A DNA stretch of 64,000 bases from an uncultured virus (IMG/VR IMGVR_UViG_3300016486_001479). Its lineage: Duplodnaviria; Heunggongvirae; Uroviricota; Caudoviricetes. This document shows positions 2,519 to 41,690 of this stretch, one piece after another. Position numbers and translations under genes: made by a program. The notes under the pieces were generated by a model. The model was given only the letters and a program-made list of their open reading frames with translations, did not search any database and had not been told where the DNA came from. The stretch is from IMG/VR virus record IMGVR_UViG_3300016486_001479, one strand, 5' to 3'. Position 1 is the first letter of the stretch. Every line of letters starts with the position of its first letter.

Positions 2519-2980
2519 ATGTGGTTTAGAGAAATTTGGAAAGAAGACGAGCTTATAACATTAGACGCACAAAAGAATTCTATTAGTGCAGAGCTCGAAA
2601 ATGCGCAGGAGTTTAGAATCGAACCCCACCACATCCAATTAGCATCAAGAATAGATATCACATTTGGAGCAGACTACGACGTTTGCTACGAAGGTATATT
2701 CTGTACAGACGATAAGCGTCCGTTCGGAAATAAACCGTGGGACCAAGATATTGCAATAGAAATGGGAGAGAAGACCCAGGAAGAGTTTTCAAAAATGGAT
2801 TTAGAGGAATACAAAGCCTGGTACAAGGAGAATTATTTCCGAATGTATCGAGTATTTCAAGAGACGAAGATTGTGATGCAAATCGCATTAACAAACATGG
2901 CGTCTCCAATCAGATTTGGGACCACATACAAGAGAGGGTTAAATAGTAAAGTTTGGTCGGAAGTGCGCGACCCGTCATAG
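2519..2980 (+). CDS. hypothetical protein
   Basis: 153-aa ORF downstream of promoter motif. Confidence 0.7.
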   Translation: MWFREIWKEDELITLDAQKNSISAELENAQEFRIEPHHIQLASRIDITFGADYDVCYEGIFCTDDKRPFGNKPWDQDIAIEMGEKTQEEFSKMDLEEYKAWYKENYFRMYRVFQETKIVMQIALTNMASPIRFGTTYKRGLNSKVWSEVRDPS

Positions 2981-2997
2981 ATACAGAGTAGAGACTT

Positions 2998-3435
2998 ATG
3001 GAAATAGATGATGCAGAATTAAAGAGTGCATGCGAACATTTGGGGGCGGACTTTGAAATACTTCGAGGAAAGAAGTGTCCTTACTGCAAAGGCGAAACAA
3101 AATACGTGGATTCATCCCTTGTGTATGGTCGTAGTTATGGGATGATGTATTTATGCGAGCCCTGTGATGCTTATGTTGGGGTTCACCATAAGACCTCAAA
3201 GGAGAGCTTAGGCAGTGTTGCCAAAGGAGAGCTTCGCAACTGGAGGAAGCAAGCCCACGCGGCTTTCGACCCCATTGCTTACGAGAGGAGAAAGAACTGG
3301 AACAGAAGAGAAGCCTACAGTTGGCTTAGAAAGAAAATGGGAATCCCCAAAGCATTGTGTCACATAGGCATGTTTTCTGTAAATAGATGCAAGAAGGTAA
3401 TAGAAATTTGTAAAAAAACACCTTGGAATGAATAA
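2998..3435 (+). CDS. zinc-finger protein (DUF3268-like)
   Basis: CPYC...YLCEPCDAYVGVH...LR..R..AH..FD...CHIGMF pattern. Confidence 0.75.
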   Translation: MEIDDAELKSACEHLGADFEILRGKKCPYCKGETKYVDSSLVYGRSYGMMYLCEPCDAYVGVHHKTSKESLGSVAKGELRNWRKQAHAAFDPIAYERRKNWNRREAYSWLRKKMGIPKALCHIGMFSVNRCKKVIEICKKTPWNE

Positions 3436-3775
3436 AATAATGGAGCTATGGGAGAAGTCAGGACTACTTAACCATCTCAATGATTCGAAAAAAGTAGCAT
3501 GCACAAGCAAGATGGAGGCGATGAAGAATTTTCTTCTATCTCCAGGCTATGAAAAAAAGATTAAACAGGTGAAGTCGATAACAGTTAATCCTGCAATGGT
3601 GATGTTCCCAATCGTGCGACGGTTGTTCGACAAGGGCCAAGAGTTTGATTCAGCAAACCTGGTCAAAAACTTTCTTGATTTTTGCGAAGAAAACCAGTTC
3701 AAAGCAAAATAACGCAGCAGCGGAAGACCCAGAGCTTGAACTCACTTTTGATTTCTGCGATGAATACGCAGTATG
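3428..3775 (+). CDS. hypothetical protein (probable frameshift near 3706; alternative frame continues to ~3775)
   Basis: ORF 3428-3712; another frame reads NNAAAEDPELELTFDFCDEYAV* up to the mscL start. Confidence 0.5.
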
Positions 3776-4222
3776 ATGCCCCCAGTTAAAAAGTTTGTAT
3801 CCGAATTTAAAAAGTTTGCTCTCAAAGCGAACTTCGTAGACATGGTCGTGGGAATCATAGTCGGAATGAAATTCAGTGTCTTAATTAATTCTTTAGTCAA
3901 AGACATTATAATGCCTCCTTTCTCTTTGTTTACATCTTATGCAAATTTTGCTGATATGCAATTAACATTAAGGAATGAAACGAAACTAAATGGAGACGTC
4001 ATAAAAGAAGCGGTGTCGATAAATTATGGACAGTTTATAGAGGTTGCAATTGACTTTTTAATTGTAGCTTTGGTAATGTATTTTGTAGTAAAAGGATATA
4101 ACCTATATAAGGCTCGCCGAGAGGACCCAGACGACAAGACTGAGGAGACTCCAAAAGATATAGAATTACTCAAATCCATCGATGATGGTTTAAAGGAGCT
4201 CAACAATAACCTTACTAAATGA
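3773..4222 (+). CDS. mscL: large-conductance mechanosensitive channel
   Basis: EFKKFALKANFVDMVVGIIVG...SLVKDIIMPP...INYGQFI...IDFLIVA. Confidence 0.92.
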   Translation: MMPPVKKFVSEFKKFALKANFVDMVVGIIVGMKFSVLINSLVKDIIMPPFSLFTSYANFADMQLTLRNETKLNGDVIKEAVSINYGQFIEVAIDFLIVALVMYFVVKGYNLYKARREDPDDKTEETPKDIELLKSIDDGLKELNNNLTK

Positions 4223-10185: not shown

Positions 10186-10502
10186 TAACTTTTAAAAAGG
10201 TGGTTATGAAAATTATAACACGTAGTGTAAAGAAGATTGTTTTTGAAGCAACTGCAGACGAGCTAAGAAGAAGAGGTTTCGATTCTTTGTGGGATGAAAT
10301 TCGAAAGAACTATCCTGAAAAAAAATTTGACCTTCATACAATTGAAGAAGAAGACAGCATTTATTTTGAATTAAAGCCGTCACTGGTGGTATAGTGAACT
10401 ACCCACAAACGTAAAAACGATTTGTGGGCATCATGAATAAATTTGAATTTGTCCCATTTTATGTCTATTGTTGTACTACAATATAACAATAGACATAAAA
10501 AA

Positions 10503-12548
10503 ATGGCAGGACGAGCATTTTCTCAAGACCCTGATGACGATGAAAAAGGGATGGGCCCTTCTTTCACAGAGGGTTCCACGCAGGTATTAGAACATTTTGG
10601 TAGAGACCTAACGCTGCTAGCAGCAAAAGGAGAACTCGACCCTGTAATAGGGCGAGAAGAAGAAATCGACATGATGGTCCAAATTCTCAACAAAAGAAAG
10701 AAGAATAACCCCATAATCGTAGGAGAGGCTGGAACAGGAAAAACAGCATTAGTCGAAGGGCTGGCTTTGCGAATCGTAAATCGCAAAACTGATAGATGGT
10801 TACTCAATAAAAGAATTATTGAATTAAATTTGTCCTCCTTGGTCGGAGGAACAAAGTACCGTGGCCAGTTCGAAGAGCGAATGAAGGCTATTATTGACGA
10901 AGCAGTAAAAAATGACGATGTTATCATATTTATTGATGAAATTCACAATCTCATGGGAGCTGGTGGTGCATCTGGTTCAATGGATGCATCTCAAATCATT
11001 AAACCAGAGCTAGCTCGTGGTACAATGCGTGTTATTGGAGCAACAACTTTAGAGGAACACAAAAAAACAATTGCTAATGACTCAGCGCTTGATAGAAGAT
11101 TTCAGAAAGTCATGCTGTCGGTTCCAACTGCGAAGCAGACGGTTGAAATTCTAAAACAAATAAAGGAACGCTATGAAGATTATCACGGCGTATCATTTTC
11201 AGACGAAACATTAGAATTTATAGTTGAGCTGTCAGATAGATATATTAACTACAGGAATTTCCCAGATAAAGCAATAGATGTCTTAGATGAAGTCGGCTCA
11301 AAAGCAAAGCTTGGATTTAGAGAAATACCTAAAGACCTAAAAGATGCCGAAGAAGGTCTTCAAGAGATTGAACAAGATAAGAAAAAAGCCGTAGCGAAGC
11401 AGCAATATGAAGTCGCAGCAAAACTTCGCGATAAAGAGCGAAGCACTAAGCAGAACATCCAGAATATGACTGAAAAATGGAAGCAGTCCTTAAAAGATGA
11501 CAAACAACCTATCACAAAAAAAGACGTAGCAGCAATCATCGCATCCCACACAGGTATACCTGTGTCTAAGCTTACAGATAATGAAAGCAATAAGCTCTTG
11601 AAAATGCAAACATACCTTTCAGATAGAGTCATCGGACAGAAAGTAGCTATTGAAAAAATTTGTGAGGCAGTCCAAAGGTCTCGCGTAGGCATACAGGACC
11701 CAAACAAACCAATTGCATCTTTATTGTTTTTAGGTTCAACAGGAGTAGGTAAGACATACTTAAGCAAAATGCTAGCTGAGTACATGTTTGACCTCCCAGA
11801 GTCTTTCATTAGGTTTGATATGAGTGAATACATGGAGAAGATATCGGTCGCTAAGTTGATTGGGTCTCCCCCTGGTTACATTGGCCATGAAGACAAGGGT
11901 TTGTTGACTGAAAAAATTAAGAACCAACCTTACTCCATACTATTGTTTGATGAAATAGAGAAAGCGCATCCAGACGTATTCAATATTATGCTTCAAATTT
12001 TTGACGAAGGCAAACTGACGGATAATCATGGGCAAGAGATTAACTTTAAAAACACTGTCATCATTATGACATCAAATATTGGAACTGATAAGCTGTTTAA
12101 GAATAAATCACTTGGATTTGCTGCAAAAGAAACAGAGCAAGAAGATATTGAGAAACTTATCATGGGAGAGCTTGGAAATTTTTTCAGACCAGAGCTAATC
12201 AACCGCATTGACGAGAAAATAATCTTCATGCCACTTACAAAGGACGAGATAATGGACATTGTTAGCTTGGAACTACAAGTTGTTATAAGCAGAATTGAAC
12301 AAAGAGGTTATAAGGTTAAAGTGTCAGACAGTGTGAAAGATTTCATAGCAGACGTAGGTTATGATAAGAAGTTTGGAGCAAGACCCCTTAAAAGAGCTAT
12401 AACATCACATTTGGAGAACACTTTTGCGCAAGCTGTCCTCAAGGGCGAAATAAAAGAAGGAGCCTCAATAACCTTCTCTTATAGAGAGAAAGATAAAAAG
12501 GTGTTTATCCAAAAAAGAAATACGAATGCTAAAAATAAAGCCGAATAA
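10503..12548 (+). CDS. ClpC/ClpA-like double-AAA+ ATPase lacking the N-terminal Clp repeat domain
   Basis: LDPVIGR, GEAGTGKT, FIDEIH, UVR-like middle (QQYEVAAKLRD), [26 protein letters not shown]. Confidence 0.92.
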   Translation: MAGRAFSQDPDDDEKGMGPSFTEGSTQVLEHFGRDLTLLAAKGELDPVIGREEEIDMMVQILNKRKKNNPIIVGEAGTGKTALVEGLALRIVNRKTDRWLLNKRIIELNLSSLVGGTKYRGQFEERMKAIIDEAVKNDDVIIFIDEIHNLMGAGGASGSMDASQIIKPELARGTMRVIGATTLEEHKKTIANDSALDRRFQKVMLSVPTAKQTVEILKQIKERYEDYHGVSFSDETLEFIVELSDRYINYRNFPDKAIDVLDEVGSKAKLGFREIPKDLKDAEEGLQEIEQDKKKAVAKQQYEVAAKLRDKERSTKQNIQNMTEKWKQSLKDDKQPITKKDVAAIIASHTGIPVSKLTDNESNKLLKMQTYLSDRVIGQKVAIEKICEAVQRSRVGIQDPNKPIASLLFLGSTGVGKTYLSKMLAEYMFDLPESFIRFDMSEYMEKISVAKLIGSPPGYIGHEDKGLLTEKIKNQPYSILLFDEIEKAHPDVFNIMLQIFDEGKLTDNHGQEINFKNTVIIMTSNIGTDKLFKNKSLGFAAKETEQEDIEKLIMGELGNFFRPELINRIDEKIIFMPLTKDEIMDIVSLELQVVISRIEQRGYKVKVSDSVKDFIADVGYDKKFGARPLKRAITSHLENTFAQAVLKGEIKEGASITFSYREKDKKVFIQKRNTNAKNKAE

Positions 12549-14805: not shown

Positions 14806-14843
14806 AAAAAGCACCCTCTGCAAAGATGTGGTGCTTTTTTTTT
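14806..14843 (+). terminator. intrinsic terminator between Y-like RNAs and Ro60
   Basis: AAAAAGCACC...GGTGC followed by T8. Confidence 0.65.
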
Positions 14844-14897
14844 ATGCGCCAAAAACAAAGAATTAATAGAATAACAACAATTATAAACAACGACGAG

Positions 14898-16418
14898 ATG
14901 TCAAAATTTAACGAAAAATCAAAGGTAGAAATGACTACCAACAAAGCGGGAGGAGAGGCTTATAAGTCGACTCCAGAGTTAGAGCTTGTGACGATTCTGT
15001 TGAACTCGTTTGTGTCTGATGACTTCTATTCGAAGGCAGGAGACCAAATAAAGGAGTTGACATCCGTTCTTAGCAAAGTGGACCCAGAGTTCGCAGCAAA
15101 GGCGGCTGTCTATGCCCGTAACGAGTTTGGAATGCGTTCTATCACCCACGTACTTGCGGGTGAAATCGCTAAGCACGCCTCAGGTAAGGCCTGGGCTAAA
15201 GAGTTTTACGCAGCTATTGTACGTCGTCCAGACGACATGACTGAGATTATGTCCTACTACTTCGGTAGAGAGGGTAAGAAAGCATCTTTGCCAAACGCGC
15301 TAAAGAAAGGTTTCAAGAAAGCTTTCGGAAAGTTCGATGCATACCAGCTTGCCAAGTACAGAGGAGACAAGAATGAAGTATCGCTTGTTGACGTTGTAAA
15401 CTTGGTTCGTCCAAAAGGAACGGCTAGAAACGAGAAGGCACTTGCCGAGCTTGTTGCTGGAACCCTAAAGAGTGAAAACACTTTCGAGTCTAAGCTGTCC
15501 GCAGCTGGCCAGGGAGCGAAGACCTCTGAGGAGAAAGCCGCAAACAAAGCTGAGGCTTGGTCTGACTTGGTTATGTCAGGTAAGATTGGACAGTTTGCTC
15601 TTCTAAGAAACCTTAGAAACATCATCCAAGATGCTTCTGACGAGGTTCTTAACAAGGCATGCGAGCTGTTGACTACAGAGGCAAGAATTAAGAAGTCACT
15701 GATTCTTCCATTCAGATACATCACTGCACTCGACGAGATTACAGTGTTGACTGGAACAAAGTCTAAGAAAGTTCAAAGAGCGCTTAACACCGCCGTAGAC
15801 CTAGCTTGTTCTAACATTCCAAAGTTTGATGGAAACACTGCAGTCGTAATTGACCTGTCAGGTTCTATGGATTGCCCAATTGCTGGAGGTAAAACTTACA
15901 GGAATAAAGTGGCAGCTCTATTTGGAGCCATGATGGCCAAGGCTAGTGATGCTGATGTAATGTCGTTTGGAACACACGCAATGTACCTTCCAGTTAACGT
16001 GAATGACTCAGTAATGGGTATGGCAAACTGGATTGTTGATACAAACCAAGGCTACGGCAACGTTGGCAAGTACAGGGTTGGTCACGGAACGAACTTCCAA
16101 GACATCTTCGTTAAGATGAAGGCGAAATACGACCGTGTATTCATCTTCTCGGACATGCAAGCGTGGATGGAGTACAATACTCCAAAAACTCAGTTTGCAG
16201 CGTACAAGAAGAAGTACGGTGCTCAGGACTGTAAAGTTTACGAGTTCAACTTGGCTGCAAGCGGAAGCATGCAGTTCCCAGAGAAGAACGTATTCGCGCT
16301 AAGAGGATTCTCTGAAAAGATTTTTGATGTCATTGACAATCTAGAAGTCGACAAAAGAGCGCTTATCAACACTATCAACAATTATGTTGATTTTGCTGAG
16401 CTTGCAACTAAGGAATAA
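14898..16418 (+). CDS. rsr: Ro60/TROVE-domain RNA-binding protein with vWA domain
   Basis: TTNKAGGEAY, YARNEFGMRS, FDAYQLAKY, ALLRNLRNI, ILPFRY, VIDLSGSM (MIDAS), GTNF, IFSDMQ, GFSEKIF. Confidence 0.93.
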   Translation: MSKFNEKSKVEMTTNKAGGEAYKSTPELELVTILLNSFVSDDFYSKAGDQIKELTSVLSKVDPEFAAKAAVYARNEFGMRSITHVLAGEIAKHASGKAWAKEFYAAIVRRPDDMTEIMSYYFGREGKKASLPNALKKGFKKAFGKFDAYQLAKYRGDKNEVSLVDVVNLVRPKGTARNEKALAELVAGTLKSENTFESKLSAAGQGAKTSEEKAANKAEAWSDLVMSGKIGQFALLRNLRNIIQDASDEVLNKACELLTTEARIKKSLILPFRYITALDEITVLTGTKSKKVQRALNTAVDLACSNIPKFDGNTAVVIDLSGSMDCPIAGGKTYRNKVAALFGAMMAKASDADVMSFGTHAMYLPVNVNDSVMGMANWIVDTNQGYGNVGKYRVGHGTNFQDIFVKMKAKYDRVFIFSDMQAWMEYNTPKTQFAAYKKKYGAQDCKVYEFNLAASGSMQFPEKNVFALRGFSEKIFDVIDNLEVDKRALINTINNYVDFAELATKE

Positions 16419-19318: not shown

Positions 19319-19677
19319 AAAACAAAGACGCATTGCTGCCAGTATTGCAGCTTCCTTTGTCAGGTACTTGTTAGCGGACTAGGAGCAGACAACACTGACG
19401 AAAAGAGTCCGTTCCGAGTATAAAAAAAGAAGAGGAGTTGCAATAAATACAGAATTTGAGAGTAATGATGAAATCTCTGAAAACACAAAGGGAATGGACT
19501 TCTCAGGGCTGTCGGATGATTTATTTTCAAAAAAAGATTGAAATAAGTGAAACTTTTTTATATCTTTGTCGTAGATTGTATTGAGAGCCAACTCTACAGC
19601 CTGACAAAATGACATCTAATATCAGATGGCACGGAAGTTGAAGAAGTAGGTTCAGAAACAAACAAAAAATAAGAGTC

Positions 19678-20097
19678 ATGAAAAAAGCATTAGACAACCA
19701 GTAAGTACACCCTTCTACAGAGAAGAAAAACTTAAAGCTTTACATCGTCGTAAGACGAGACCTCGCTCCTGGAGCGCAGGCAACTCAAGGAATGCATTCA
19801 TTCCACGTATTCAATCAAGAATACACAGCCATTTATGAAAAATGGTTATCGAATCCATATTTAGGATTCTTATCAGTCAAAGACGAGCAAGAACTCATCG
19901 AGCTCCGAGACAAACTCACGCAAAAAGGTATTAATTTCAGTTCCTTCCAGGAGCCTGACCTCGACAACCAGTTCACGTCTATTACCGTAGAACCAGGGAA
20001 AGAATCTGCCCGTTGGTTATCTAGTCTACCACTTGCTTTCAAAGAATTTACGAATCAACCAACTCTCAAGAGTTGTAATTGTAAAGAAGCCGCATGA
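19678..20097 (+). CDS. PTH2-like peptidyl-tRNA hydrolase with in-frame TAA at codon 9
   Basis: ATG 19678: MKKALDNQ*VHPSTEKKNLKLYIVVRRDLAPGAQATQGMH...FQEPDLDNQFTSI...LSSLPL. The conserved KLYIVVRRDL lies upstream of the ORF-track start 19792 in the same frame. Confidence 0.75.
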
Positions 20098-20118
20098 TGA
20101 TGCAGGTTTCCATATCAC

Positions 20119-20165
20119 GGTGCGAGAGCTTTTGGCTCATGGGACATTCGATTGTCCCCGCACCA
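20119..20165 (+). ncRNA. mini-tRNA-like element, family A copy 1
   Basis: GGTGCG/CGCACC stem, one hairpin GAGC/GCTC, T-like arm GGGACA-TTCGAT-TGTCCC. Confidence 0.65.
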
Positions 20166-20169
20166 CTAC

Positions 20170-20218
20170 GGCGGATGCATAAGCACCAGTTCAGGTTAAA
20201 GTCCTGAATCCGCCACCA
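20170..20218 (+). ncRNA. mini-tRNA-like element, family B copy 1
   Basis: GGCGGA-TGCATAAGCACCAG-TTCAGG-TTAAAGT-CCTGAA-TCCGCC-ACCA. Confidence 0.7.
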
Positions 20219-20292
20219 GACGGGATAGCTCAGCGGTTAGAGCACCAGGCCTTAAAAACCTGGGGACGAGAGTTCGAATCTTTCTCCTGTCA
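20219..20292 (+). tRNA. tRNA with 9-nt anticodon loop CCTTAAAAA (identity uncertain)
   Basis: Full cloverleaf; anticodon stem CCAGG/CCTGG. Confidence 0.75.
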
Positions 20293-20300
20293 CAACAAAA

Positions 20301-20312
20301 GTTCATTGACGT
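20301..20312 (+). promoter_or_regulatory. boxA-like antitermination element
   Basis: GTTCATTGACGT; relatives GTTCTTTGACAT at 39119 and 62984, GCTCTTTGACGT at 37575. Confidence 0.6.
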
Positions 20313-20328
20313 GTTGGAATTTAAAAAA

Positions 20329-20382
20329 GGCGTGAGAGTCCATTAGGGATTCGCGGGAGATTCGTTTCTTCCCACGCCACCA
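20329..20382 (+). ncRNA. mini-tRNA-like element, family A copy 2
   Basis: GGCGTG-A-GAGTCC/GGATTC-GC-GGGAGA-TTCGTT-TCTTCC-CACGCC-ACCA. Confidence 0.7.
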
Positions 20383-20383
20383 C

Positions 20384-20429
20384 GGCCCCTGCATTAGCAC
20401 TAGAGGAAGAGAAAGTCTTCCTGGGGCCT
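20384..20429 (+). ncRNA. mini-tRNA-like element, family B copy 2
   Basis: GGCCCC-TGCATTAGCACTAG-AGGAAG-AGAAAGT-CTTCCT-GGGGCC. Confidence 0.65.
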
Positions 20430-20432
20430 CTT

Positions 20433-20512
20433 GGTGAGGTAGCTCAGTTGGTTCAGAGCACCAGGCTTTAAAACCCTGGAGGTCGAAGGTTCAAGTCCTT
20501 CCCTCACCACCA
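20433..20512 (+). tRNA. tRNA with 9-nt anticodon loop CTTTAAAAC (possible UUA suppressor-like)
   Basis: Cloverleaf with fully paired stems and encoded CCA. Confidence 0.8.
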
Positions 20513-20513
20513 C

Positions 20514-20559
20514 GCCGCTTGCATTAGCACTAGAATAGGTGAGATTCCTGTTAGCGGCA
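20514..20559 (+). ncRNA. mini-tRNA-like element, family B copy 3
   Basis: GCCGCT-TGCATTAGCACTAG-AATAGG-TGAGATT-CCTGTT-AGCGGC-A. Confidence 0.65.
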
Positions 20560-20562
20560 CTT

Positions 20563-20705
20563 CCTGGAGTAGCTCAGTTGGTTAGAGCACCACCCTGATA
20601 AATGAGGAAAAGGATTGAAACGCAACCTGCGTGGCCACAAGGGTTGTGAAGTAGAGAATTGGAATCGAACGGTGGGGGTCGGGGGTTCGAGCCCTTCCTC
20701 CAGGA
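20563..20705 (+). tRNA. tRNA-Ile(GAT) with 69-nt insertion at the 3' side of the anticodon loop
   Basis: CCTGGAG...CCACC-CTGATAA-[20602-20670]-GGTGG...TTCGAGC...CTCCAGG-A. Confidence 0.75.
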
Positions 20706-20711
20706 CAATTT

Positions 20712-20878
20712 CATGCGATAGCTTAGATATGTTAAAGCACCACACTGATAATGTGGAAGACGAACCGAAAGGACTCAGTTCGGGATGCAAACACAAAAAC
20801 TCACTTGCGTGGCCACAAGAGTGAGTTAGTAGTTGATGTTGAAGAAATGATGGGGGGCAGAACCCTCTCGCGGGACCA
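20712..20878 (+). tRNA. degenerate tRNA-Ile(GAT)-like with ~90-nt insertion before the T arm
   Basis: CCACA-CTGATAA-TGTGG anticodon arm; ends TCGCGGG-ACCA; T loop aberrant. Confidence 0.55.
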
Positions 20879-20938
20879 TTATAATGAGCAGTGAGATGCT
20901 TGGGGAGGCGCTGTTCTCATAAACAACTTCCCCCACAT

Positions 20939-20990
20939 GGCGTGAGAATCTGAAAGAAGATTCGCGTGAGATTCGTTTCTCCCCACGCCA
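20939..20990 (+). ncRNA. mini-tRNA-like element, family A copy 3
   Basis: GGCGTG-A-GAATCT/AGATTC-GC-GTGAGA-TTCGTT-TCTCCC-CACGCC-A. Confidence 0.65.
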
Positions 20991-20996
20991 CAACAT

Positions 20997-21122
20997 GGGC
21001 GGATTGCACCAAGATTTTTAAGGAAATGTTCGAACGAGTACTTAAAAGGATGGAAGGCGCAAAACTAGATGGCTTAGCGGCCATAAGAAAAGTTGTAGGT
21101 TCGATTCCTATTCCGTTCACCA
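20997..21122 (+). ncRNA. tRNA-like RNA: acceptor stem, T arm and CCA around a ~90-nt non-tRNA interior
   Basis: GGGCGGA...GTAGG-TTCGATT-CCTAT-TCCGTTC-ACCA. Confidence 0.6.
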
Positions 21123-21144
21123 AACAATAAAAAAAACGAAAGCT

Positions 21145-21657
21145 ATGGTAGAGACAAACAGAATTACACCCCAAGTGGTGATTGATGCTTTATGTGAGAG
21201 ATTAAACCCGAAGCCTGGAGCGAGAATACTAGAACCATCTGCAGGCACAGGAGTATTGGCGGACGGGGTTCAAGAAAAATTCCAACAGTGTAAAATTGAC
21301 TGTGTAGAACTTAATCAAGAATGCCGAGTCACACTGAAAGAAAAAGAATATGAGTTGGTTGGCTCAGACTTCTTCCGATTCGAAGCCCAGACACCATATG
21401 ATTACGTCATTGCCTGTCCTAACTTTCGAGACAATGTCGATTGCAAACACATCATGCACATGTATGACCAACTTGCACCAGGCGGAACAATCTCAAGCTT
21501 AACATCTCCTTTTTGGATGGTTGGAGAGACTTAACTGCACAAAGAATTCCGTGAGTGGCTTCAAGATAAGAACTACTCCGTGACAATGGTCCCAGATTAT
21601 TCATTTGTTGAGGATTACAAAACTGTACCCTCAGCTATAATCCGAATCAAGAAATGA
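21145..21657 (+). CDS. class I SAM-dependent (DNA-MTase-like) methyltransferase with in-frame TAA at 21532
   Basis: ILEPSAGTG, CVELN, DFF, YVIACPNF; frame continues past TAA as LHKEFREWL...VPSAIIRIKK* to a TGA overlapping the next ATG. Confidence 0.7.
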
Positions 21658-22070
21658 AAAAGTTCAGACCAATTCAGTTCAGATGGAACGAAGCTTTAGG
21701 TGAAAAAAGTTGCCCGTATGCTTACAGATGGGTGTTCAATTTCTACTTATTTTCGTTCCGAGTTCACAACTTCATAAGAAGTGAACCAATCGCGCACCAG
21801 CATGACCATGCTTGGGATTTTATCACTTTCATACTGAAAGGAGGCTATTTAGACATAAGCCCAAATGGAATCGATAAGTTAAGACAAGGAAGCATTCGCT
21901 TTAGAAAAGCAGAACATATACATAATGTAGTGCTTCCTAAAGATGTGTCTTGCTGGACATTTGTATTAGCGTTTAAGCCACGACGAAAATGGGGTTTTTG
22001 GATTAATGGAAAATTGAAACGTCCATTAAAGTATTTTCATAAATATGGTCACTTGCCTTGCGAGGATTAA
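21654..22070 (+). CDS. cupin-like phage protein
   Basis: HQHDHAWDF..ILKGGY...FRKAEHIH...WGFW. Confidence 0.7.
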   Translation: MKKFRPIQFRWNEALGEKSCPYAYRWVFNFYLFSFRVHNFIRSEPIAHQHDHAWDFITFILKGGYLDISPNGIDKLRQGSIRFRKAEHIHNVVLPKDVSCWTFVLAFKPRRKWGFWINGKLKRPLKYFHKYGHLPCED

Positions 22071-22084
22071 AAACAAAAAAAATA

Positions 22085-22816
22085 ATGGATTGGTTTAAAA
22101 AAGTAATGGATTATAATGACAAGTTTGAGTGTGTGGATATTAATTTTGGCACCGAGTTGGGTGGTGAAATTAGTTTTGAAGTCCAATACTGGAATGGAGA
22201 CAGAATGTCTTACAACTTTGTACTGATGTACTACATGAGCCCAATGGCATCAAACTTCTTTGATATAATAGATGAGTTTTGTGAAAAAACAGATTTAATC
22301 TTCTCTGAGTATGGAGATGTGTTTAAAAAAATAGACCAATTAAATGCTAAAGAAGAATCAGCGCAAGAAATGGCAAGCAAAATATCAAAACAGACTTACA
22401 TTGTAAAAGACACAGAGTTTAATCCAGAAAGAAATCCTTCGTGGATGAAATCCTTGTACAGTATCGGAGAATCTTTGTCCGTGGAAATATTCGAGTTAGA
22501 AAGTCCAGAGAAATCAAAGTATGGTATACATATGTCAACAAACTGCAATGACGCCATTCCATGCTGCTCTTATTTTCCAACCATTGTATTGACGCATATT
22601 GATGAATCAAAAACCATTGATGAAGAAATAGAGAGAACACTAGAATATGCGATATGGTACTTTAAAGAGAATCCAGGCATAATAGACTACATCTATGATA
22701 GAAAAAACAAAGATAAAATCAACATAAAGTTAGCCAAACTAGAAAATTCTGTCCCAGGTAAGGTGAAAGAATTCATGACATTAAAAGAATGGTTGATAAC
22801 TTCAAAACCTAGTTAG
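22085..22816 (+). CDS. hypothetical protein
   Basis: Long ORF, likely start MDWFKK. Confidence 0.6.
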   Translation: MDWFKKVMDYNDKFECVDINFGTELGGEISFEVQYWNGDRMSYNFVLMYYMSPMASNFFDIIDEFCEKTDLIFSEYGDVFKKIDQLNAKEESAQEMASKISKQTYIVKDTEFNPERNPSWMKSLYSIGESLSVEIFELESPEKSKYGIHMSTNCNDAIPCCSYFPTIVLTHIDESKTIDEEIERTLEYAIWYFKENPGIIDYIYDRKNKDKINIKLAKLENSVPGKVKEFMTLKEWLITSKPS

Positions 22817-23029
22817 TAACCACTATTTTAATGCTATGGCTACTGTAGATAACACGAGATATTGTATAGAATGGACTTCAAACTATACAGCTAAGCATCG
22901 CCCCAGGGTGGCTTGGACCAAATACTCTGGTCCATATTCCTCGTTACGAAGAGTTATGCAGGCTAAGAAAGATATTCTATCTTCACCGTATTGTGGAGAC
23001 TGGCTGTATCGGATAGCACATTACCACAA

Positions 23030-23101
23030 GGGGCGTTAGTTCAGAGGTAGAACATCAGGCTTTAACCCTGTACGTCAGGGGTTCGAACCCCCTACGCCCC
23101 T
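23030..23101 (+). tRNA. tRNA with TTA anticodon (ochre suppressor)
   Basis: GGGGCGT/ACGCCCC acceptor, GTTC/GAAC D stem, TCAGG-CT TTA AC-CCTGT, AGGGG-TTCGAAC-CCCCT. Confidence 0.85.
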
Positions 23102-23173
23102 CTTGAATTACAGATAGAAAAAGGCCGCCCTTCGAACAGTTTTTATATTTGTAAAATTGATTACATTTGTAGA

Positions 23174-23863
23174 ATGCGAAACCCCACAAAGAAGTTTGAA
23201 AACGATAATATATCATTTTATAGATACAGCTGGGGAAAACCAGTTGCTTTTCACTTAACTTACGAGTGCCACGGGTATTCTGATGATGAGAGACCCCAAA
23301 TCCATATAGCATTCCTATTCTGGAGCCTGTTTTGGAGTATGCCCTGGTCACACAAGAGAAAGGATTACGGCGACTCAGAACAGTATGGCTGTTATTGGTA
23401 TCAGGATGGTTGGCAGAGTCAGAGCTTTGTTATTCGTTACGGAAAGAAATCTAAATACATTAATATGCCCTGGAATCTCGACCACGTTCGCCACAGCATT
23501 AAATTGAAGGATGGAACATGGGTTCATTCAATAAAAGGCGACAAACAAGACTTTTATAAAGACGAATGGAAAGAGAAAATGTGGAGAACTAATATGCCGT
23601 ATGTTGATAAGCACACTCCAAATGGAGAACTGAACGTGGTTAATGCCGATATATCCATCTCGGAGAGAGAATGGAGAATGAGATGGTTCAAACGAACAAC
23701 TATGTTCAGCCAAGTGAGTCGTACAATTGACGTTGAATTCTCTTCAGAAGTAGGAAAGAGAAGAGGAAGCTGGAAAGGTGGAACCACTGGTTGTGGTGAA
23801 AGATTTGATAAACACGAAACATGGAAGGACGGATTTGAGAGACTAACACAGAGAGTTTTTTAA
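23174..23863 (+). CDS. Trp-rich conserved phage hypothetical protein
   Basis: 229-aa ORF ending in EVG...GSWKGGTTGC motif. Confidence 0.7.
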   Translation: MRNPTKKFENDNISFYRYSWGKPVAFHLTYECHGYSDDERPQIHIAFLFWSLFWSMPWSHKRKDYGDSEQYGCYWYQDGWQSQSFVIRYGKKSKYINMPWNLDHVRHSIKLKDGTWVHSIKGDKQDFYKDEWKEKMWRTNMPYVDKHTPNGELNVVNADISISEREWRMRWFKRTTMFSQVSRTIDVEFSSEVGKRRGSWKGGTTGCGERFDKHETWKDGFERLTQRVF

Positions 23864-32563: not shown

Positions 32564-34891
32564 ATGGATGAGTTATTAGCAAAAAGTACTGGCGAAACCC
32601 TGATTGAGCACAGTCGAAAGGTTGCTGAGGTTGCGGAATATATTGCCGACTCAGTTATAGTTACCTCAGATACAGAAAAAAAACATTTTATATCAGTTAT
32701 CCGCAAAGCGGCGCTTCTTCATGATATTGGAAAAGCCGAAACCGAGTTTCAAACTTTACTCCGAAACTCTTTAAATGGTAAATCCACTAAAACAAAGAAA
32801 AAAGACATTATTTTTTCGCACAATGAAGTGGGATGGGCATTTGTAAGAATGTACATCAGCTTTGACTCAGAGGAGCTAAGACAAGTTGCTGAAGCAGTAT
32901 ACTGGCATCACGGCATTCATAATGTAATGGGCAAGCACACAGATGCGTCTATTCTTGAGTGGGTTCGGAAGAAGAAAGATAATTCTATCGATAGAATGAT
33001 TGAATTCGTCGAAGAATTATTTCCTGGCCAAGTCCTTGATAGGCCAAGAATAGCTGAAACATCAAGCCCTCATTACTATATTAGAGATTTTAACGAGACG
33101 AGCGACCTCAACGTTGACAACACGATTATTCGCATGTGCGTGGTAAGAGCTGACCACTTAGTTAGTGAATTAGGAGATTTTACAGTTGATGAAATTAAAA
33201 AAACTATAAATGAACGACTGATTCAACAACACCGTTACGCTTTTACTAAATGCCCATATCCTGGACATGAAAAAAGATGGACACAACAAGTTGCTTTAGC
33301 ATCTAGGACGACCTCGTTTAAGACTGTTCAAATCAACGCCCCTGCTGGATACGGAAAAACACTTCTAGGTTTACTTTGGAGCACTGTCAACAATAAACGG
33401 CTTATTTGGGTGTGTCCAAGAAATGCTGTGGCACAATCAGTGTACCACAACATCTTAAGAGAGCTTAAAAATGCAGGAATTGAAACTTCAGTAGAATTAT
33501 ATTACGCTGGAAAACAACAGGCCTCAAATTCAGATTTAGGAATAAAGTTTTCAAGCGATATCATTGTAACCAACGTAGATAACTTTTTACGTCCGACAAA
33601 AGAGCATTGTAACGATATTGATTTATTAATGGTATCCGATGCAGATGTTGTATTTGATGAGTATCATGAGCTAGTGTCGGACGGGGCTTTACTGGCTGGT
33701 TTTATAAATCTAATGAAGGTAAGACATCAGATGACAAACGGACGCTCTTTACTGCTGTCCGCAACCCCACTTGATTTATCAGTTTATTGGGATTCATTTG
33801 ACAACTCAACAGCCCATTTGCCTGGAAAATTTGAACATGCTCCTGCTGTCCACAATAAATCATACAAACTCACTACAAAAGAGGGGCGTTCTAGAATATC
33901 TGAAAGTAAAAAAAGCCCTGTTCTTTTTATCTCTAATTCTATAGTTGAGTGTCAAAGAAATAAGCACAAACACAATGAAGATACTATTTTGTTTCATGGA
34001 AAATTTGAGGACGACGACAATCAAGCGCGATTAAGCGTTATTCTTCAAAACTATGGAAAGCAATCCGACAGAAATATTGAAAAAGAACACGTAATAGCGA
34101 GCCCAATAGCACAGGCATCTTTAGATGTTTCTTTTAGGCATTTGATTGAAAGTTGCCTGTCTCCAGAAGCTACTCTTCAAAGAGTAGGCCGTGTCGACAG
34201 GTGGGGAGATTATGATGACCAGTCTGAAATTCTAACATATCGAATCCCTTCAGATAATTCTGGACGAAGTGAGAATAGAGCCCGCGAAACAATGTACTCA
34301 CGAGAACTGTCTGACTTATGGTTTAATTTTCTAACACAAAGTCAAGGGGAAACAACTTTAGATAACCTATATTCTTTGTATAATAAACATTGTAAAGAAA
34401 ATGAAGCCTTAAGAAGAATCTGGTTAAACACAAAATATCGACAAAGCCGCATGGATTTACATGAGAAAATTTATCCTAATAGGTTAACGATTAAAAGTGA
34501 AAACTCGGAAGTCCATAAAATACAAGAAACTAGCTATAGAAGCAAAGGAAATGAAATCTTTTTTACTGCTAAAAAATGGGCAAAAAAAGAATGGACACAG
34601 CCTAAATCAACTCCTATTTATGATTCTATACCCGAAGACTTCCATGAAGACTCCAACGCACTAGCAAAAGTATTTAAGATAATTAAACATCTTAACGATG
34701 AGCCAGATTGCGCTTTTGATTACACTAGATTTTTAAAAGTTCCAAAGCATAGCACAAATCTTGAATTATTGCGTATAATGGCGAAATACAAATCAATGCC
34801 GTATCCGAGGATGGATATGGAATATCATGACATTTACGGATATATTAAAAAAACTTTACTGGAAGAGTTTGACCAGCCAATTTACGAGTAA
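32564..34891 (+). CDS. cas3: CRISPR-associated HD nuclease/helicase Cas3 (no Cas2 fusion)
   Basis: LIEHS, LLHDIGK, HN, WHHG, RADH; APAGYGKT, DEYH, SAT, QRVGRVDRWG; adjacent cas6 and array. Confidence 0.92.
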   Translation: MDELLAKSTGETLIEHSRKVAEVAEYIADSVIVTSDTEKKHFISVIRKAALLHDIGKAETEFQTLLRNSLNGKSTKTKKKDIIFSHNEVGWAFVRMYISFDSEELRQVAEAVYWHHGIHNVMGKHTDASILEWVRKKKDNSIDRMIEFVEELFPGQVLDRPRIAETSSPHYYIRDFNETSDLNVDNTIIRMCVVRADHLVSELGDFTVDEIKKTINERLIQQHRYAFTKCPYPGHEKRWTQQVALASRTTSFKTVQINAPAGYGKTLLGLLWSTVNNKRLIWVCPRNAVAQSVYHNILRELKNAGIETSVELYYAGKQQASNSDLGIKFSSDIIVTNVDNFLRPTKEHCNDIDLLMVSDADVVFDEYHELVSDGALLAGFINLMKVRHQMTNGRSLLLSATPLDLSVYWDSFDNSTAHLPGKFEHAPAVHNKSYKLTTKEGRSRISESKKSPVLFISNSIVECQRNKHKHNEDTILFHGKFEDDDNQARLSVILQNYGKQSDRNIEKEHVIASPIAQASLDVSFRHLIESCLSPEATLQRVGRVDRWGDYDDQSEILTYRIPSDNSGRSENRARETMYSRELSDLWFNFLTQSQGETTLDNLYSLYNKHCKENEALRRIWLNTKYRQSRMDLHEKIYPNRLTIKSENSEVHKIQETSYRSKGNEIFFTAKKWAKKEWTQPKSTPIYDSIPEDFHEDSNALAKVFKIIKHLNDEPDCAFDYTRFLKVPKHSTNLELLRIMAKYKSMPYPRMDMEYHDIYGYIKKTLLEEFDQPIYE

Positions 34892-37560: not shown

Positions 37561-37646
37561 CTCCTTGTGCAAGCGCTCTTTGACGTCTTTTTTCCATCCA
37601 GTACATGTGGTTGTTGCTTGTTTATTAGCGCATTAGCCACAGGTAC

Positions 37647-38114
37647 CCTGTTTATCATCTCATTCTGCAAGGGAATCACAACTCTTCCTCAAATCGGTAT
37701 TCATTATAGTCTCCTGTTTATCATCTCATTCTGCAAGGGAATCACAACTGAACAGCAAAATTATTCAAGGCGATTGCCCCTGTTTATCATCTCATTCTGC
37801 AAGGGAATCACAACATAAAGGCTTTCTGATGTATCAATTCCCTCCTGTTTATCATCTCATTCTGCAAGGGAATCACAACATGGCAAGCAAATATGTTTCT
37901 GTTTTGGTACCTGTTTATCATCTCATTCTGCAAGGGAATCACAACACCATCTTGGTAATTCTTTATTTGGCTGTGCCTGTTTATCATCTCATTCTGCAAG
38001 GGAATCACAACTGTTGGGTGCTGTGGCTAATCGTAATCCGCCTGTTTATCATCTCATTCTGCAAGGGAATCACAACTACCTGCCATCTGTTTGAAATATT
38101 TTATCTCCTGTTTA
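37647..38114 (+). CRISPR. CRISPR array part 1: 7 repeats, 7 spacers and an 8-nt repeat remnant
   Basis: CCTGTTTATCATCTCATTCTGCAAGGGAATCACAAC (36 nt) at 37647, 37713, 37779, 37844, 37910, 37976, 38041; spacers 29-30 nt. Confidence 0.97.
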
Positions 38115-40645: not shown

Positions 40646-40688
40646 CTTATTTGAAACAAAACCCAATTGAATGCGTATATTTGCTTAC

Positions 40689-41690
40689 ATGAGAAAACTA
40701 GCAACCATTCGGAGAATAGAATCACTACATCCTATTAAAAAAGCTGACCGTATCGAACTTGCAAAAGTTGGTGGTTGGAGGTCAGTGGTCAAAAAAGGAG
40801 AATTCAATGTTGGCGACATGGTAGTTTATTGTGAGATAGATTCTTTATTGCCTGTGAAAGAAGAATTTGAGTTTCTTCGAAAATCTTGTTTTAGAGAATT
40901 GCCATATGGAGTTTCGGGGTTCCGATTAAGAACAATGAAACTTCGAGGTCAAATATCACAAGGCCTCATACTTCCTTTGTCAGTTCTTTCTTCAGGAGAT
41001 TTTAAAATTGGAGAAGATGTAACTGAGCAGTTACAGATAATCAAGTACGACCCACCTATTCCAAAAGAAATGATGGAAAGTGCAATTGGAGTTTTTCCGT
41101 CGTTTATTAAAAAGACAGAAGAGGAAAGAATTCAAAACTTAGATTCGGAGATAGAGCTTTTAAAGGGGCGAACTTTTTTCGTAACTGAAAAACTTAATGG
41201 ACTCTCGATGACAGTTTTTCATAACGCAAACGAATTTGGCGTTTGTGGAAGAAACTATCAATATAAAAAACTTGAAAGCAATGCTTTGTGGTCTTCGGCG
41301 ATAGAAGAAGGGCTAGAAGAGAAATTAAAAGCTTACGGTAAAAATATTGCTATTCAAGGCGAGTTGGTTGGGCCTGGAATCAGCGATAATCCATATGAGC
41401 TTGTGACAAAAGAATACCGAGTTTATAACATATTCAACATTGATGAATACGCATACCTCTCGAAAAAAGATTGTCAAGAATTAGCCACTCAAATGAGCCT
41501 AAAGTTAGTTCCACTTGTCTCAGCGTCTATGGCATTGCCTGAATCTGTAGATGCCATCCTAGAAATGGCTGATGGACCAAGCCAGTTAAATCCAGAGACT
41601 CAGAAAGAAGGAGATGTTTGGGTAAGCGGCGATGGACAAGATAGAGTCTCTTTTAAAGTTATTTCGAATCATTTTTTATTGGAGGAATGA
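40689..41690 (+). CDS. ATP-dependent RNA ligase (DRB0094-like)
   Basis: RKLATIRRI..I..ADRIE, YCEIDS, LRGQISQGL, TEKLNG, IQGEL.G, EG.V, SFKVIS. Confidence 0.9.
   Translation: MRKLATIRRIESLHPIKKADRIELAKVGGWRSVVKKGEFNVGDMVVYCEIDSLLPVKEEFEFLRKSCFRELPYGVSGFRLRTMKLRGQISQGLILPLSVLSSGDFKIGEDVTEQLQIIKYDPPIPKEMMESAIGVFPSFIKKTEEERIQNLDSEIELLKGRTFFVTEKLNGLSMTVFHNANEFGVCGRNYQYKKLESNALWSSAIEEGLEEKLKAYGKNIAIQGELVGPGISDNPYELVTKEYRVYNIFNIDEYAYLSKKDCQELATQMSLKLVPLVSASMALPESVDAILEMADGPSQLNPETQKEGDVWVSGDGQDRVSFKVISNHFLLEE

What the first reader, a model, noticed from the sequence alone, without database searches (positions are those of the whole stretch)
19609..23101. Local ochre-readthrough module: UUA-anticodon tRNA(s) next to two genes with in-frame TAA
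Seen: a canonical tRNA with anticodon TTA (23030-23101) and two tRNAs with 9-nt loops containing TTAAAA (20219, 20433). The PTH2-like gene has TAA at codon 9 (19702), before its conserved N-terminal strand. The methyltransferase has TAA at 21532 and continues in frame for 40 family-like residues to a stop overlapping the next ATG. An upstream ATG (19609) is also in frame with the PTH gene, through a TGA. The other broken genes I found are indels, and TAA is otherwise the common stop. Inference: conditional expression gated by suppressor tRNA or release-factor shortage, fitting for a peptidyl-tRNA hydrolase.
Basis: partly seen in the sequence, partly recalled or inferred. Interest (0 to 1): 0.8.

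Follow-up and report, generated by a model that had tools for sequence, protein, structure and literature searches.

The report
Ochre suppressor tRNA gating two phage genes
A large salt-lake phage that uses the normal genetic code carries one tRNA that reads the stop codon UAA, and two of its genes can be made in full only if that tRNA reads through a conserved built-in UAA, which gives such puzzling phage tRNAs concrete targets to test.

Summary
The window belongs to a myovirus-like jumbo phage that uses the standard code, and TAA ends 67 of 115 long ORFs. It has one canonical tRNA(UUA) at 23030-23102.

Two genes carry an in-frame TAA:
- A Pth2-fold gene has it at codon 9, before strand 1, with no usable start downstream.
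- A small DNA-methyltransferase-like gene has it at codon 130, followed by 40 conserved residues.

Both TAAs recur in other assemblies and in diverged relatives.

The decisive evidence is a syntenic sister clade (L010, L095). There the same two genes carry in-frame TAG and the only suppressor is tRNA(CUA). Among 31 Pth2-like phage lineages, 15 have a short leader plus a stop. In 12 of the 12 where a suppressor was in reach, its anticodon matches the stop, and all three stop codons are represented.

I conclude that expression of both genes is gated by the phage's own suppressor. This is inferred, with no RNA or protein data.

The two tRNAs with 9-nt loops and the upstream ATG-through-TGA frame are not supported as parts of the module.

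This scan noted the amber form earlier on other DNA. The ochre form, the second gated gene and the covariation are new here. Six literature searches found no paper describing any of it.

The parts
19678..20097 (+). PTH2-like (Pth2-fold) gene: leader MKKALDNQ, in-frame TAA, then 130 codons, with the final TGA at 20095-20097
   Evidence: Pfam PTH2, 29.1 bits. The AF2 model has pLDDT 90.4 with strand 1 at residues 11-17 after the stop. The Foldseek top hits are archaeal Pth2 2zv3 and 3erj and human Bit1 1q7s.
19702..19704 (+). In-frame TAA (codon 9) of the PTH2-like gene, in the context CAG TAA GTA
   Evidence: The same leader, TAA and GTA are present in L093/L094 at 68% aa identity. Three other runs show no variant.
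21145..21657 (+). Small SAM-dependent methyltransferase (DNA-MTase-like domain), 129 codons + TAA + 40 codons, with its stop overlapping the next ATG
   Evidence: PHROG matches span residues 7-168, across the stop. The PDB profile gives MJ0882, M.BseCI, Erm and HemK at E 2e-7 to 9e-5.
21532..21534 (+). In-frame TAA (codon 130) of the methyltransferase, in the context ACT TAA CTG
   Evidence: It aligns with GAA (Glu) in L010 and L095. Seven of 7 close relatives end at this residue, and 5 of 5 relatives at 43-50% identity continue and align with the extension.
23030..23102 (+). tRNA(UUA), the only stop-reading tRNA found in the 141-kb record; no CCA is encoded and the discriminator is U
   Evidence: 15 tRNAs in G001, one of them tta.
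20219..20293 (+). tRNA with 9-nt loop CCUUAAAAA; membership in the module is not supported
   Evidence: The L093 counterpart is read as caa.
20433..20512 (+). tRNA with 9-nt loop CUUUAAAAC and an encoded CCA; membership in the module is not supported
   Evidence: The L093 counterpart lacks the D and anticodon arms.

Best explanation
The phage's own tRNA(UUA) reads the in-frame UAA at codon 9 of the Pth2-fold gene and at codon 130 of the methyltransferase gene. When release factors win the competition, the products are an 8-residue peptide and a methyltransferase that lacks its last 40 conserved residues. When the suppressor wins, the full proteins are made.

The output of both genes therefore follows the ratio of suppressor activity to termination activity in the infected cell. 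This is the ochre form of a widespread phage design in which a Pth2-like gene starts with a very short leader and a stop that matches a neighbouring suppressor tRNA.

Shown by sequence comparison:
- The stops are real and conserved.
- No other start can give the fold.
- The sequence after each stop is under selection.
- Stop type and anticodon change together.

Inferred:
- That this tRNA is charged and decodes UAA.
- The residue inserted. Three of 3 alignable stops correspond to Glu codons in the nearest relatives.
- The purpose of the gating. I favour a coupling that scales a tRNA-hydrolase-type activity, and a DNA-modifying activity, to the level of read-through. This could be damage control for ribosomes that run past stops, or a brake on the suppressor itself.
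For: Conservation of the design in the window's clade:
- L093/L094 (68% aa identity) has the leader MKKQLDHQ, then TAA, then GTA. There are synonymous changes in the Lys, Leu and Gln codons of the leader and an in-frame 6-nt indel after the stop.
- The first canonical start after the stop is at codon 29 in the window, inside helix 1. In L093 it is at codon 105 of 127.
- The methyltransferase ends at the same residue in 7 of 7 relatives with 64-98% identity. The 5 relatives at 43-50% identity run on and align with the window's extension. PHROG profiles span the stop.

Covariation with the sister clade:
- In L010 (= G002) and L095/L096 the PTH2-like gene reads ATG AAA TAG GTA/GTT.
- The methyltransferase there has TAG at codon 17 (L095) or 18 (L010).
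- The only suppressor is tRNA(CUA).
- Among 58 G001 ORFs with a tblastn match in G002, the methyltransferase is the only one with an in-frame stop in a real frame. The PTH2-like pair was seen separately.

Breadth across the Pth2-like family:
- Fifteen of 31 Pth2-like lineages have a leader plus a stop.
- In 12 of the 12 where a suppressor lies in the fetched DNA, the anticodon matches the stop: 10 TAG/cta, 1 TAA/tta and 1 TGA/tca.
- A random pairing of those 12 stops and anticodons would match perfectly in 1 of 132 permutations. This is my arithmetic and ignores relatedness.
- The base after the leader stop is a purine in 15 of 15.

The standard code holds for the genome:
- Terminase, portal, sheath and polymerase genes are open in code 11.

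Glu hint:
- Window TAA130 aligns with GAA in L010/L095. Their TAG aligns with GAG in the window. The second TAG of L129 aligns with GAA in its sister L130.
Against: - There is no RNA or protein evidence. No RNA run holds the stretch.
- TAA ends 58% of the phage's long ORFs. I found no sign of protection against read-through: back-up stops are no closer after TAA than after TGA or TAG, and the +4 bases are mixed. An efficient ochre suppressor should therefore be costly, so read-through is probably weak or timed.
- The methyltransferase TAA is followed by C, unlike the purine seen at the leader stops.
- The suppressor lies 2.9 kb from the PTH2-like gene, not adjacent as in most amber cases.
- The tRNA has a U73 discriminator and no close isotype match, so its charging is unknown.
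- I could not get DNA for the close methyltransferase relatives, so their stop codon type is unknown. L093 ends before any suppressor could be seen.
- Three of the 15 leader cases (L120, Bxz1, Myrna) have a canonical start right after the stop and need no read-through.
- The 1-kb L100 contig is too short to exclude a TGA-recoded genome.
Confidence: 0.75

Rival explanations
1. The stops are true terminators. The 8-codon leader is a mini upstream ORF, and the Pth2-like protein starts by re-initiation or at a non-canonical codon just after it. The methyltransferase works as a 129-residue protein.
For: The codon after the leader stop is often start-like: GTG in Bxz1 and Myrna, ATT in L120 and L129-L132, and ATA in pT24. 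Bxz1 gp154 and Myrna gp84 are annotated as starting from that GTG. From memory rather than from any call, very short ORFs are linked to peptidyl-tRNA drop-off and Pth in lambda bar minigenes.
Against: - In the window's clade and in L010 and L095 the next codon is GTA or GTT. In L116, L119 and L100 it is GAA, AAC or ACA. None of these is a known start.
- This rival does not explain why the stop type follows the anticodon of the neighbouring suppressor in 12 of 12 cases.
- It does not explain the internal stops: methyltransferase codons 17/18 and 130, and codon 37 in L129. The sequence on both sides of those stops is conserved.
- GTG after the methyltransferase TAG in L010 is GTT in L095.
Confidence: 0.08
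2. Read-through happens but does not depend on the phage tRNA. The in-frame stops sense a fall in host termination capacity (release-factor shortage or near-cognate decoding), and the suppressor tRNA serves another purpose.
For: The suppressor lies 2.9 kb away in the window. L131 and L132 have the TAG leader but no suppressor within 3 kb. Seven lineages have a suppressor next to a Pth2-like gene that has no leader stop.
Against: A sensor of termination in general has no reason to switch from TAG to TAA in two genes at once in exactly the clade whose tRNA switched from CUA to UUA. RF1 reads both codons (textbook knowledge), so RF1 shortage would not select between them.
Confidence: 0.1
3. The two genes are decaying pseudogenes, or the stops are sequencing artefacts.
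For: Two nonsense codons within 2 kb could reflect decay in an accessory island.
Against: The sequence is the same in G001, in L090-L092 and in contigs of four further runs. The stop is kept at 64-98% protein identity and in L093. The 40-codon extension is open, ends on the next gene's ATG and is more conserved than the rest of the protein against L010.
Confidence: 0.03
4. The two tRNAs with 9-nt loops (20219, 20433) are the real, or additional, decoders of UAA or of a longer word that contains it.
For: Both loops contain UUA. In the second, the 5' side reads C-U-UUA as in a normal loop. In the sister clade the suppressor sits at this position of the island. Tools read 8-nt loops complementary to a stop plus one base in L116, L117 and L127.
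Against: ARAGORN reads both as anticodon UAA. In L093, which keeps the TAA leader, the first counterpart is read as caa and the second has lost the D and anticodon arms.
Confidence: 0.04

Closest known systems
Amber-gated Pth2-like gene plus tRNA(CUA) module of standard-code large phages. It appears in earlier notes of this scan (e1-3412305, e1-5349570) and was seen here in Tenacibaculum phage pT24, mycobacteriophages Bxz1 and Myrna, huge-phage records LR756500/501/504 and LR745206, and L010, L095, L116, L119 and L120.
   Same: A short leader, an in-frame stop just before strand 1 of a Pth2-fold protein, and a cognate suppressor tRNA in the same tRNA island of a standard-code genome.
   Different: Here the codon is TAA, the phage's main terminator, rather than the rare TAG. 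The suppressor is 2.9 kb away. A second gene (the methyltransferase) is gated too. I found no paper describing either form.
Stop-codon-recoded phages (TAG or TGA read as an amino acid). Borges et al., bioRxiv 10.1101/2021.08.26.457843; I read passages only.
   Same: A phage-encoded suppressor tRNA decodes in-frame stops in phage genes of a host with the standard code. A role in timing was proposed.
   Different: Recoding there affects many genes, mostly late ones, and lowers coding density in code 11. Here I found two genes in 141 kb, the late genes are open in code 11, and the codon is TAA, which stays the main stop. The passages I read list TAA suppressors only as a column of a heat map.
Orphan suppressor tRNAs of cultured standard-code phages: XacN1 (PMC5852040), Atu_ph07 (PMC6102473), Summit (PMC9022506, abstract only) and phage G tRNA Sup:UUA (PMC12484599). 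I read passages only.
   Same: A suppressor tRNA in a genome that keeps the standard code, and several of these phages also encode a peptidyl-tRNA hydrolase.
   Different: Those papers state that no target could be identified, or name none. Here two targets are proposed.
Autoregulation of release factor 2 (prfB) by an early in-frame UGA (textbook knowledge, recalled, not from a call).
   Same: An early in-frame stop in a translation-related gene makes its output depend on how well termination competes.
   Different: prfB escapes by a +1 frameshift and needs no dedicated tRNA.
Archaeal and eukaryotic peptidyl-tRNA hydrolase Pth2. Iyer et al. noted PTH2 in jumbo phages (PMC7824862, passages only).
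   Same: The fold and the Pfam family.
   Different: The phage clade has its own invariant set of residues (His, Glu-Pro-Asp, Thr). In the profile alignment it lacks the Gly-Lys stretch of the archaeal enzymes. Its substrate is untested.

Membership tests
Pth2 peptidyl-tRNA hydrolase (PF01981) | Sequence match above the curated threshold | tested here: met
   Pfam PTH2 scores 29.1 bits against a cut-off of 23. The PDB profile hit 2zv3 has E 3.7e-9. NCBIfam arch_pth2 scores only 18.5 bits against a cut-off of 82.
Pth2 peptidyl-tRNA hydrolase (PF01981) | Pth2 alpha/beta fold including the first strand | tested here: met
   AF2 pLDDT is 90.4. Foldseek finds 2zv3, 3erj, 1q7s, 1xty and 1wn2 at probability 1.00 with TM 0.63-0.75.
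Pth2 peptidyl-tRNA hydrolase (PF01981) | Catalytic residues of the archaeal enzymes and hydrolysis of peptidyl-tRNA | tested here: inconclusive
   The phage clade keeps His31, Glu83-Pro84-(Asp85) and Thr91. The Gly-Lys segment of 2zv3 falls in a gap. Which residues are catalytic is recalled only, and activity cannot be tested here.
Nonsense (ochre) suppressor tRNA | Canonical cloverleaf, 7-nt loop, U33, and UUA at positions 34-36 | tested here: met
Nonsense (ochre) suppressor tRNA | Is aminoacylated and decodes UAA on the ribosome | not testable with these tools
   Only indirect support: conserved cognate in-frame codons and covariation.
Stop-codon-recoded (alternative code) phage | Low coding density in code 11 and in-frame stops in many genes | tested here: not met
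   ORFs of 100 aa or more cover 84% of G001 in code 11, and TAA is the main stop. Structural and replication genes are open. Only 2 interrupted genes were found.
Programmed stop-codon read-through | A conserved in-frame stop with conserved coding sequence on both sides | tested here: met
Programmed stop-codon read-through | A read-through product is observed | not testable with these tools
   No RNA holder is listed, and there are no proteomes.
Amino-group (N6-adenine type) SAM methyltransferase | SAM-binding motif I and motif IV (D/N/S)PP(Y/F) | tested here: inconclusive
   Motif I, LEPSAGxG, is invariant. Motif IV reads CPNF here, and APTF, APTY, CPPF or APPF in relatives. The Pfam MTS and N6_Mtase scores are below their cut-offs. 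PHROG 'DNA methyltransferase' families score E 5e-23. The motif definition is recalled.

The most novel reading that the evidence does not exclude
The suppressor tRNA and the Pth2-like enzyme form a self-setting circuit. The enzyme acts on the suppressor itself, or on what read-through leaves behind on stalled ribosomes. Because the enzyme can be made only by read-through, the pair holds suppression at a fixed low level. This would let a phage run a controlled ochre read-through programme (Glu at UAA) in a cell, and in a genome, where UAA is the main terminator. The methyltransferase would be a second output of the same switch.
Probability: 0.2. Interest if true: 0.9.

Novelty: new variant of a known kind. 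Interest (0 to 1): 0.8.

Why it matters
Suppressor tRNAs turn up again and again in phages that keep the standard code. Genome papers say that no target gene could be found for them (XacN1 and Summit; passages and abstract seen).

This work gives concrete, conserved targets. The targets obey a codon-anticodon rule across all three stop codons. The rule also held through a switch from amber to ochre in two genes at once.

That turns an open question into simple experiments in cultivable systems: pT24 on Tenacibaculum, and Bxz1 or Myrna on Mycobacterium smegmatis. It also shows that UAA, the strongest and most common terminator, can be used as a gated sense codon without a change of genetic code.

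There is a practical consequence for annotation. Gene callers truncate or mis-start these genes. Relatives in the databases are called as 101-aa and 129-aa fragments, and BPT24_235 is annotated from a later start.

Tried and rejected
- No RNA holder is listed for the stretch, so nothing can be said on expression.
- DNA of the close methyltransferase relatives (P0001-P0007) and of the PTH2-like relatives P0015-P0019 could not be reached. The viral-contig scan gave at best 43% identity. The genome-contig scan gave only distant hits. A pattern scan for the clade's leader found nothing. The 447-kb record behind L092 is not held.
- A simple codon-usage score for coding on both sides of stops was too weak to use, because antisense frames scored as high. 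I replaced it with gap and leader scans and with tblastn between G001 and G002. The other starred hits there were antisense shadows, a repeat protein out of frame, or alignment running into a 5' leader.
- I looked for signs that the genome shields its normal TAA stops and found none.
- The isotype of the tRNA(UUA) stays unresolved. There are weak blastn hits to phage tRNA-Gly and tRNA-Asn and no hit in E. coli genomes.
- The twenty suppressor tRNAs from the loci share only 59% mean column identity and do not form one family.
- The Pth2-like tree is resolved only near the tips: window + L093 has 99/98 support, and 13 of 26 inner branches are open. I therefore make no claim about the order of events.
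- Genome-wide TAA recoding is rejected.
- The upstream ATG 19609 read through TGA is rejected. That stretch is conserved at the nucleotide level in L093 but with a 10-nt gap.
- Weak Rfam hits in the island (YrlA at 22 bits, RAGATH-4 and others) are all far below threshold.

Full report
WHAT THE WINDOW IS

Nearly all long ORFs lie on the + strand, with A-rich leaders and no Shine-Dalgarno-like sequence. The window's own assembly is not held. An IMG/VR record, G001 (141 kb, estimated 64% complete), is 99.9% identical to it and 100% identical over 19600-23130.

G001 encodes a terminase large subunit, portal, tail sheath, baseplate hub, a split DNA polymerase, ribonucleotide reductase and a sigma factor. 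All are open in code 11. The window adds two ClpB-like ATPases, a Ro60/TROVE protein, a Cas3-like helicase, an RNA ligase and an Acb3 homologue.

- ORFs of 100 aa or more cover 84% of G001 in code 11.
- No 5-kb stretch outside the tRNA islands is fragmented.
- Among 115 non-overlapping ORFs of 120 aa or more, 67 end in TAA, 30 in TGA and 18 in TAG.

So this is a jumbo tailed phage with the standard code, and TAA is its main terminator. Runs that hold the stretch are labelled salt lake metagenomes. The nearest cultured carrier of the same gene design infects Tenacibaculum, which fits a Bacteroidota host. The host assignment is inference only.

THE OBSERVATION

- The tRNA at 23030-23102 is a canonical cloverleaf with loop CUUUAAC and anticodon UUA. 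It is the only stop-reading tRNA among 15 tRNAs in G001.
- The PTH2-like gene starts at ATG 19678. It reads MKKALDNQ, then TAA at 19702, then 130 codons.
- The methyltransferase starts at 21145. It has TAA at 21532 and runs 40 codons further, to a TGA that overlaps the next gene's ATG.
- The same letters stand in G001, in three further contigs (L090-L092), and in Logan contigs of four runs not flagged as the source. The pieces shown cross 19702 in 3 of 4 runs and 21532 in 4 of 4, with no difference. These are contigs, not raw reads.

THE PTH2-LIKE GENE NEEDS THE STOP TO BE PASSED

Pfam PTH2 matches above threshold from residue 19 of the read-through protein. An AlphaFold model built on 27 sequences has pLDDT 90.4. 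It places strand 1 at residues 11-17 after the stop and helix 1 at residues 22-39. Foldseek returns archaeal Pth2 structures and human Bit1 at probability 1.00.

The first ATG/GTG/TTG after the TAA is codon 29, inside helix 1. In the relative L093 (68% identity) the first such codon is 105 of 127, beyond the invariant Glu-Pro-Asp motif.

L093 keeps the design: MKKQLDHQ, TAA, GTA. It has synonymous changes in three leader codons and an in-frame 6-nt indel after the stop. Leader, stop and body are therefore read in one frame.

Five further relatives in the protein database are all called as 101- or 112-residue fragments starting at the internal Met. That is what a gene caller does with this design.

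THE METHYLTRANSFERASE

Seven of 7 relatives with 64-98% identity end at exactly the window's residue 129. Five relatives at 43-50% identity continue and align with the window's 40-residue extension. PHROG profiles match residues 7-168, across the stop.

The family is a small stand-alone form of a phage DNA-methyltransferase-like domain. Its substrate is not known. I could not obtain DNA of the seven close relatives, so the type of their stop codon is not known.

THE DECISIVE COMPARISON

The nearest methyltransferase relative in IMG/VR is L010, part of the 81-kb record G002. L010 is syntenic with the window: PTH2-like gene, tRNA island, methyltransferase, cupin gene.

- In L010 the PTH2-like gene reads ATG AAA TAG GTA.
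- The methyltransferase has TAG at codon 18 (TTC ATG TAG GTG).
- The only suppressor in 81 kb is tRNA(CUA).
- L095/L096, about 78% identical to L010 in this gene, has the same design with TAG GTT. That rules out the GTG as a conserved restart codon.

Both genes therefore carry TAG where the tRNA reads UAG, and TAA where the tRNA reads UAA. The stops in the methyltransferase lie at different positions in the two clades.

Among 58 G001 ORFs with a tblastn match in G002, the methyltransferase is the only one with an in-frame stop in a real frame. My leader and extension scans of the window and G001 found no further convincing case.

THE WIDER FAMILY

I examined 31 lineages in which the N-terminus of a Pth2-like gene is visible:
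- the window;
- L093, L095, L098-L102 and L010;
- 13 loci from IMG/VR (L116-L128);
- 9 of the 218 matching phage records (L129-L137).

Results:
- Fifteen have a 1- to 8-codon leader and then a stop directly before the domain. Twelve are TAG, two are TAA and one is TGA.
- Twelve of the 15 have no canonical start before strand 1.
- In 12 of the 15 a stop-reading tRNA lies in the fetched DNA, and in 12 of 12 its anticodon matches.
- The other three are L093, whose contig ends, and L131 and L132, where only 3 kb each side was seen.
- Seven further lineages have a suppressor next to a Pth2-like gene that has a normal start.

As a control, I scanned 60 of the 80 methyltransferase-family loci. Only L010 had any tRNA.

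The base after the leader stop is a purine in 15 of 15. From memory of classical E. coli work, not from a call, a following purine favours tRNA suppression.

In L129 to L134, reading TAG as sense changes only the Pth2-like ORF in each locus.

WHAT RESIDUE IS INSERTED

Three in-frame stops can be aligned to close relatives, and all three face a Glu codon that differs only in its first base.
- Window TAA130 faces GAA in L010 and L095.
- Their TAG faces GAG in the window.
- The second TAG of L129 faces GAA in its sister L130.

This hints at Glu. The tRNA's isotype could not be settled.

WHAT IS NOT PART OF THE MODULE

The two tRNAs at 20219 and 20433 do have 9-nt loops. ARAGORN reads them as UAA. 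Their counterparts in L093, which keeps the TAA leader, are a tRNA read as caa and a remnant without D and anticodon arms. Their role stays unexplained.

The ATG at 19609 is in frame through a TGA. The stretch is conserved with L093 only at the nucleotide level and with a 10-nt gap, so it is not coding in that frame.

HOW IT MOST LIKELY WORKS

1. The island is transcribed from the + strand.
2. The tRNA is matured. CCA is not encoded, so it must be added.
3. The tRNA is charged by a host enzyme.
4. Ribosomes on the two mRNAs meet UAA, where release factors compete with the suppressor.
5. Termination gives an 8-mer and a truncated methyltransferase. Read-through gives the full proteins.

All five steps are inferred. 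What is shown is the conservation and the covariation.

The cost argument cuts against a strong suppressor. TAA ends 58% of the long ORFs, and I saw no shielding of normal stops.

The purpose is open. I favour a coupling of the hydrolase-type activity to the level of read-through.

KNOWN WORK

Six full-text searches found no paper that links a Pth2-like gene, an in-frame stop and a suppressor tRNA.

- The XacN1 paper states that targets of its CUA suppressors could not be identified (passages).
- The Summit abstract says the same (listing).
- The phage G paper names a tRNA Sup:UUA without a target (passage).
- Iyer et al. note PTH2 in jumbo phages, and the words 'suppressor' and 'stop codon' do not occur in that paper.
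- The Borges et al. preprint has no occurrence of 'peptidyl' or 'hydrolase'.
- Supplements were not opened.

Two earlier notes of this scan describe the amber form on other DNA. My own loci confirm that form. The ochre form, the second gated gene, the covariation between clades and the Glu hint are added here.

VERDICT

I classify it as a new variant of a known kind: programmed read-through served by a virus-encoded suppressor tRNA in a standard-code genome. Interest is 0.8.

Noticed in passing
window 20563-20705 and about 20800-20820: A tRNA-Ile(GAU) is interrupted by a 69-nt insertion after the anticodon loop (ARAGORN; Rfam 49.9 bits). The insertion holds a hairpin with loop GCGTGGCCACAAG, and a second copy of that hairpin lies about 180 nt downstream. 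L093 has the same interrupted tRNA, and L010 has an interrupted tRNA before its methyltransferase. The insertion is too short for a group I intron, and how it is removed is unknown.
   Followed up: partly
window about 20120-20218, 20331-20432, 20513-20562, 20940-20993: Small elements with an acceptor-like stem and a T-arm-like hairpin but no D or anticodon arm lie between the tRNAs. Several end in ACCA and they are conserved in L093. There is a weak sub-threshold YrlA (Y RNA-like) hit at 20168-20272 (22 bits). The phage encodes a Ro60/TROVE protein at 14826-16418, so these could be its RNA partners.
   Followed up: no
window 23174-23863: A homologue of the CBASS inhibitor Acb3 (Pfam E 7e-34) lies directly after the suppressor tRNA.
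   Followed up: no
window 32564-34891; 10443-12548 and 56348-59029; 40671-41690: A Cas3-like HD nuclease-helicase without visible CRISPR context, two ClpB-like disaggregases, and an RNA ligase next to further tRNA genes.
   Followed up: no
window about 37646-38078: A repeat array whose copy number differs between the window and G001.
   Followed up: no
L122-L125 and L128 (about 2860-3035); L116:3433-3508, L117:3737-3810, L127:3324-3397: GC-rich phages have a tRNA with a 9-nt loop NNUAAUGAN immediately upstream of their Pth2-like gene. Three other loci have 8-nt-loop tRNAs that ARAGORN reads as ctta, ttca and tcta, that is, complementary to a stop codon plus one base. Pth2-like genes seem to keep company with non-standard tRNAs in general.
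   Followed up: partly
L129 (LR756501.1) 2986-3369: The Pth2-like gene of this 735-kb phage has two in-frame TAGs (codons 3 and 37) and two tRNA(CUA) genes 2.1 kb downstream. Neighbouring ORFs are unaffected by reading TAG as sense.
   Followed up: partly
L134 (Tenacibaculum phage pT24, LC168164.1) 2947-3900: The annotated CDS BPT24_235 starts 81 nt after the homology begins. The upstream part reads ATG AAA TAG ATA in frame, and a tRNA annotated tRNA-Sup lies 2.6 kb upstream. This phage is a cultivable test system.
   Followed up: partly
window 21654-22070: The gene after the methyltransferase matches a PHROG family called cysteine dioxygenase (cupin), E 1e-25. It is syntenic in L010 and L095.
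   Followed up: no
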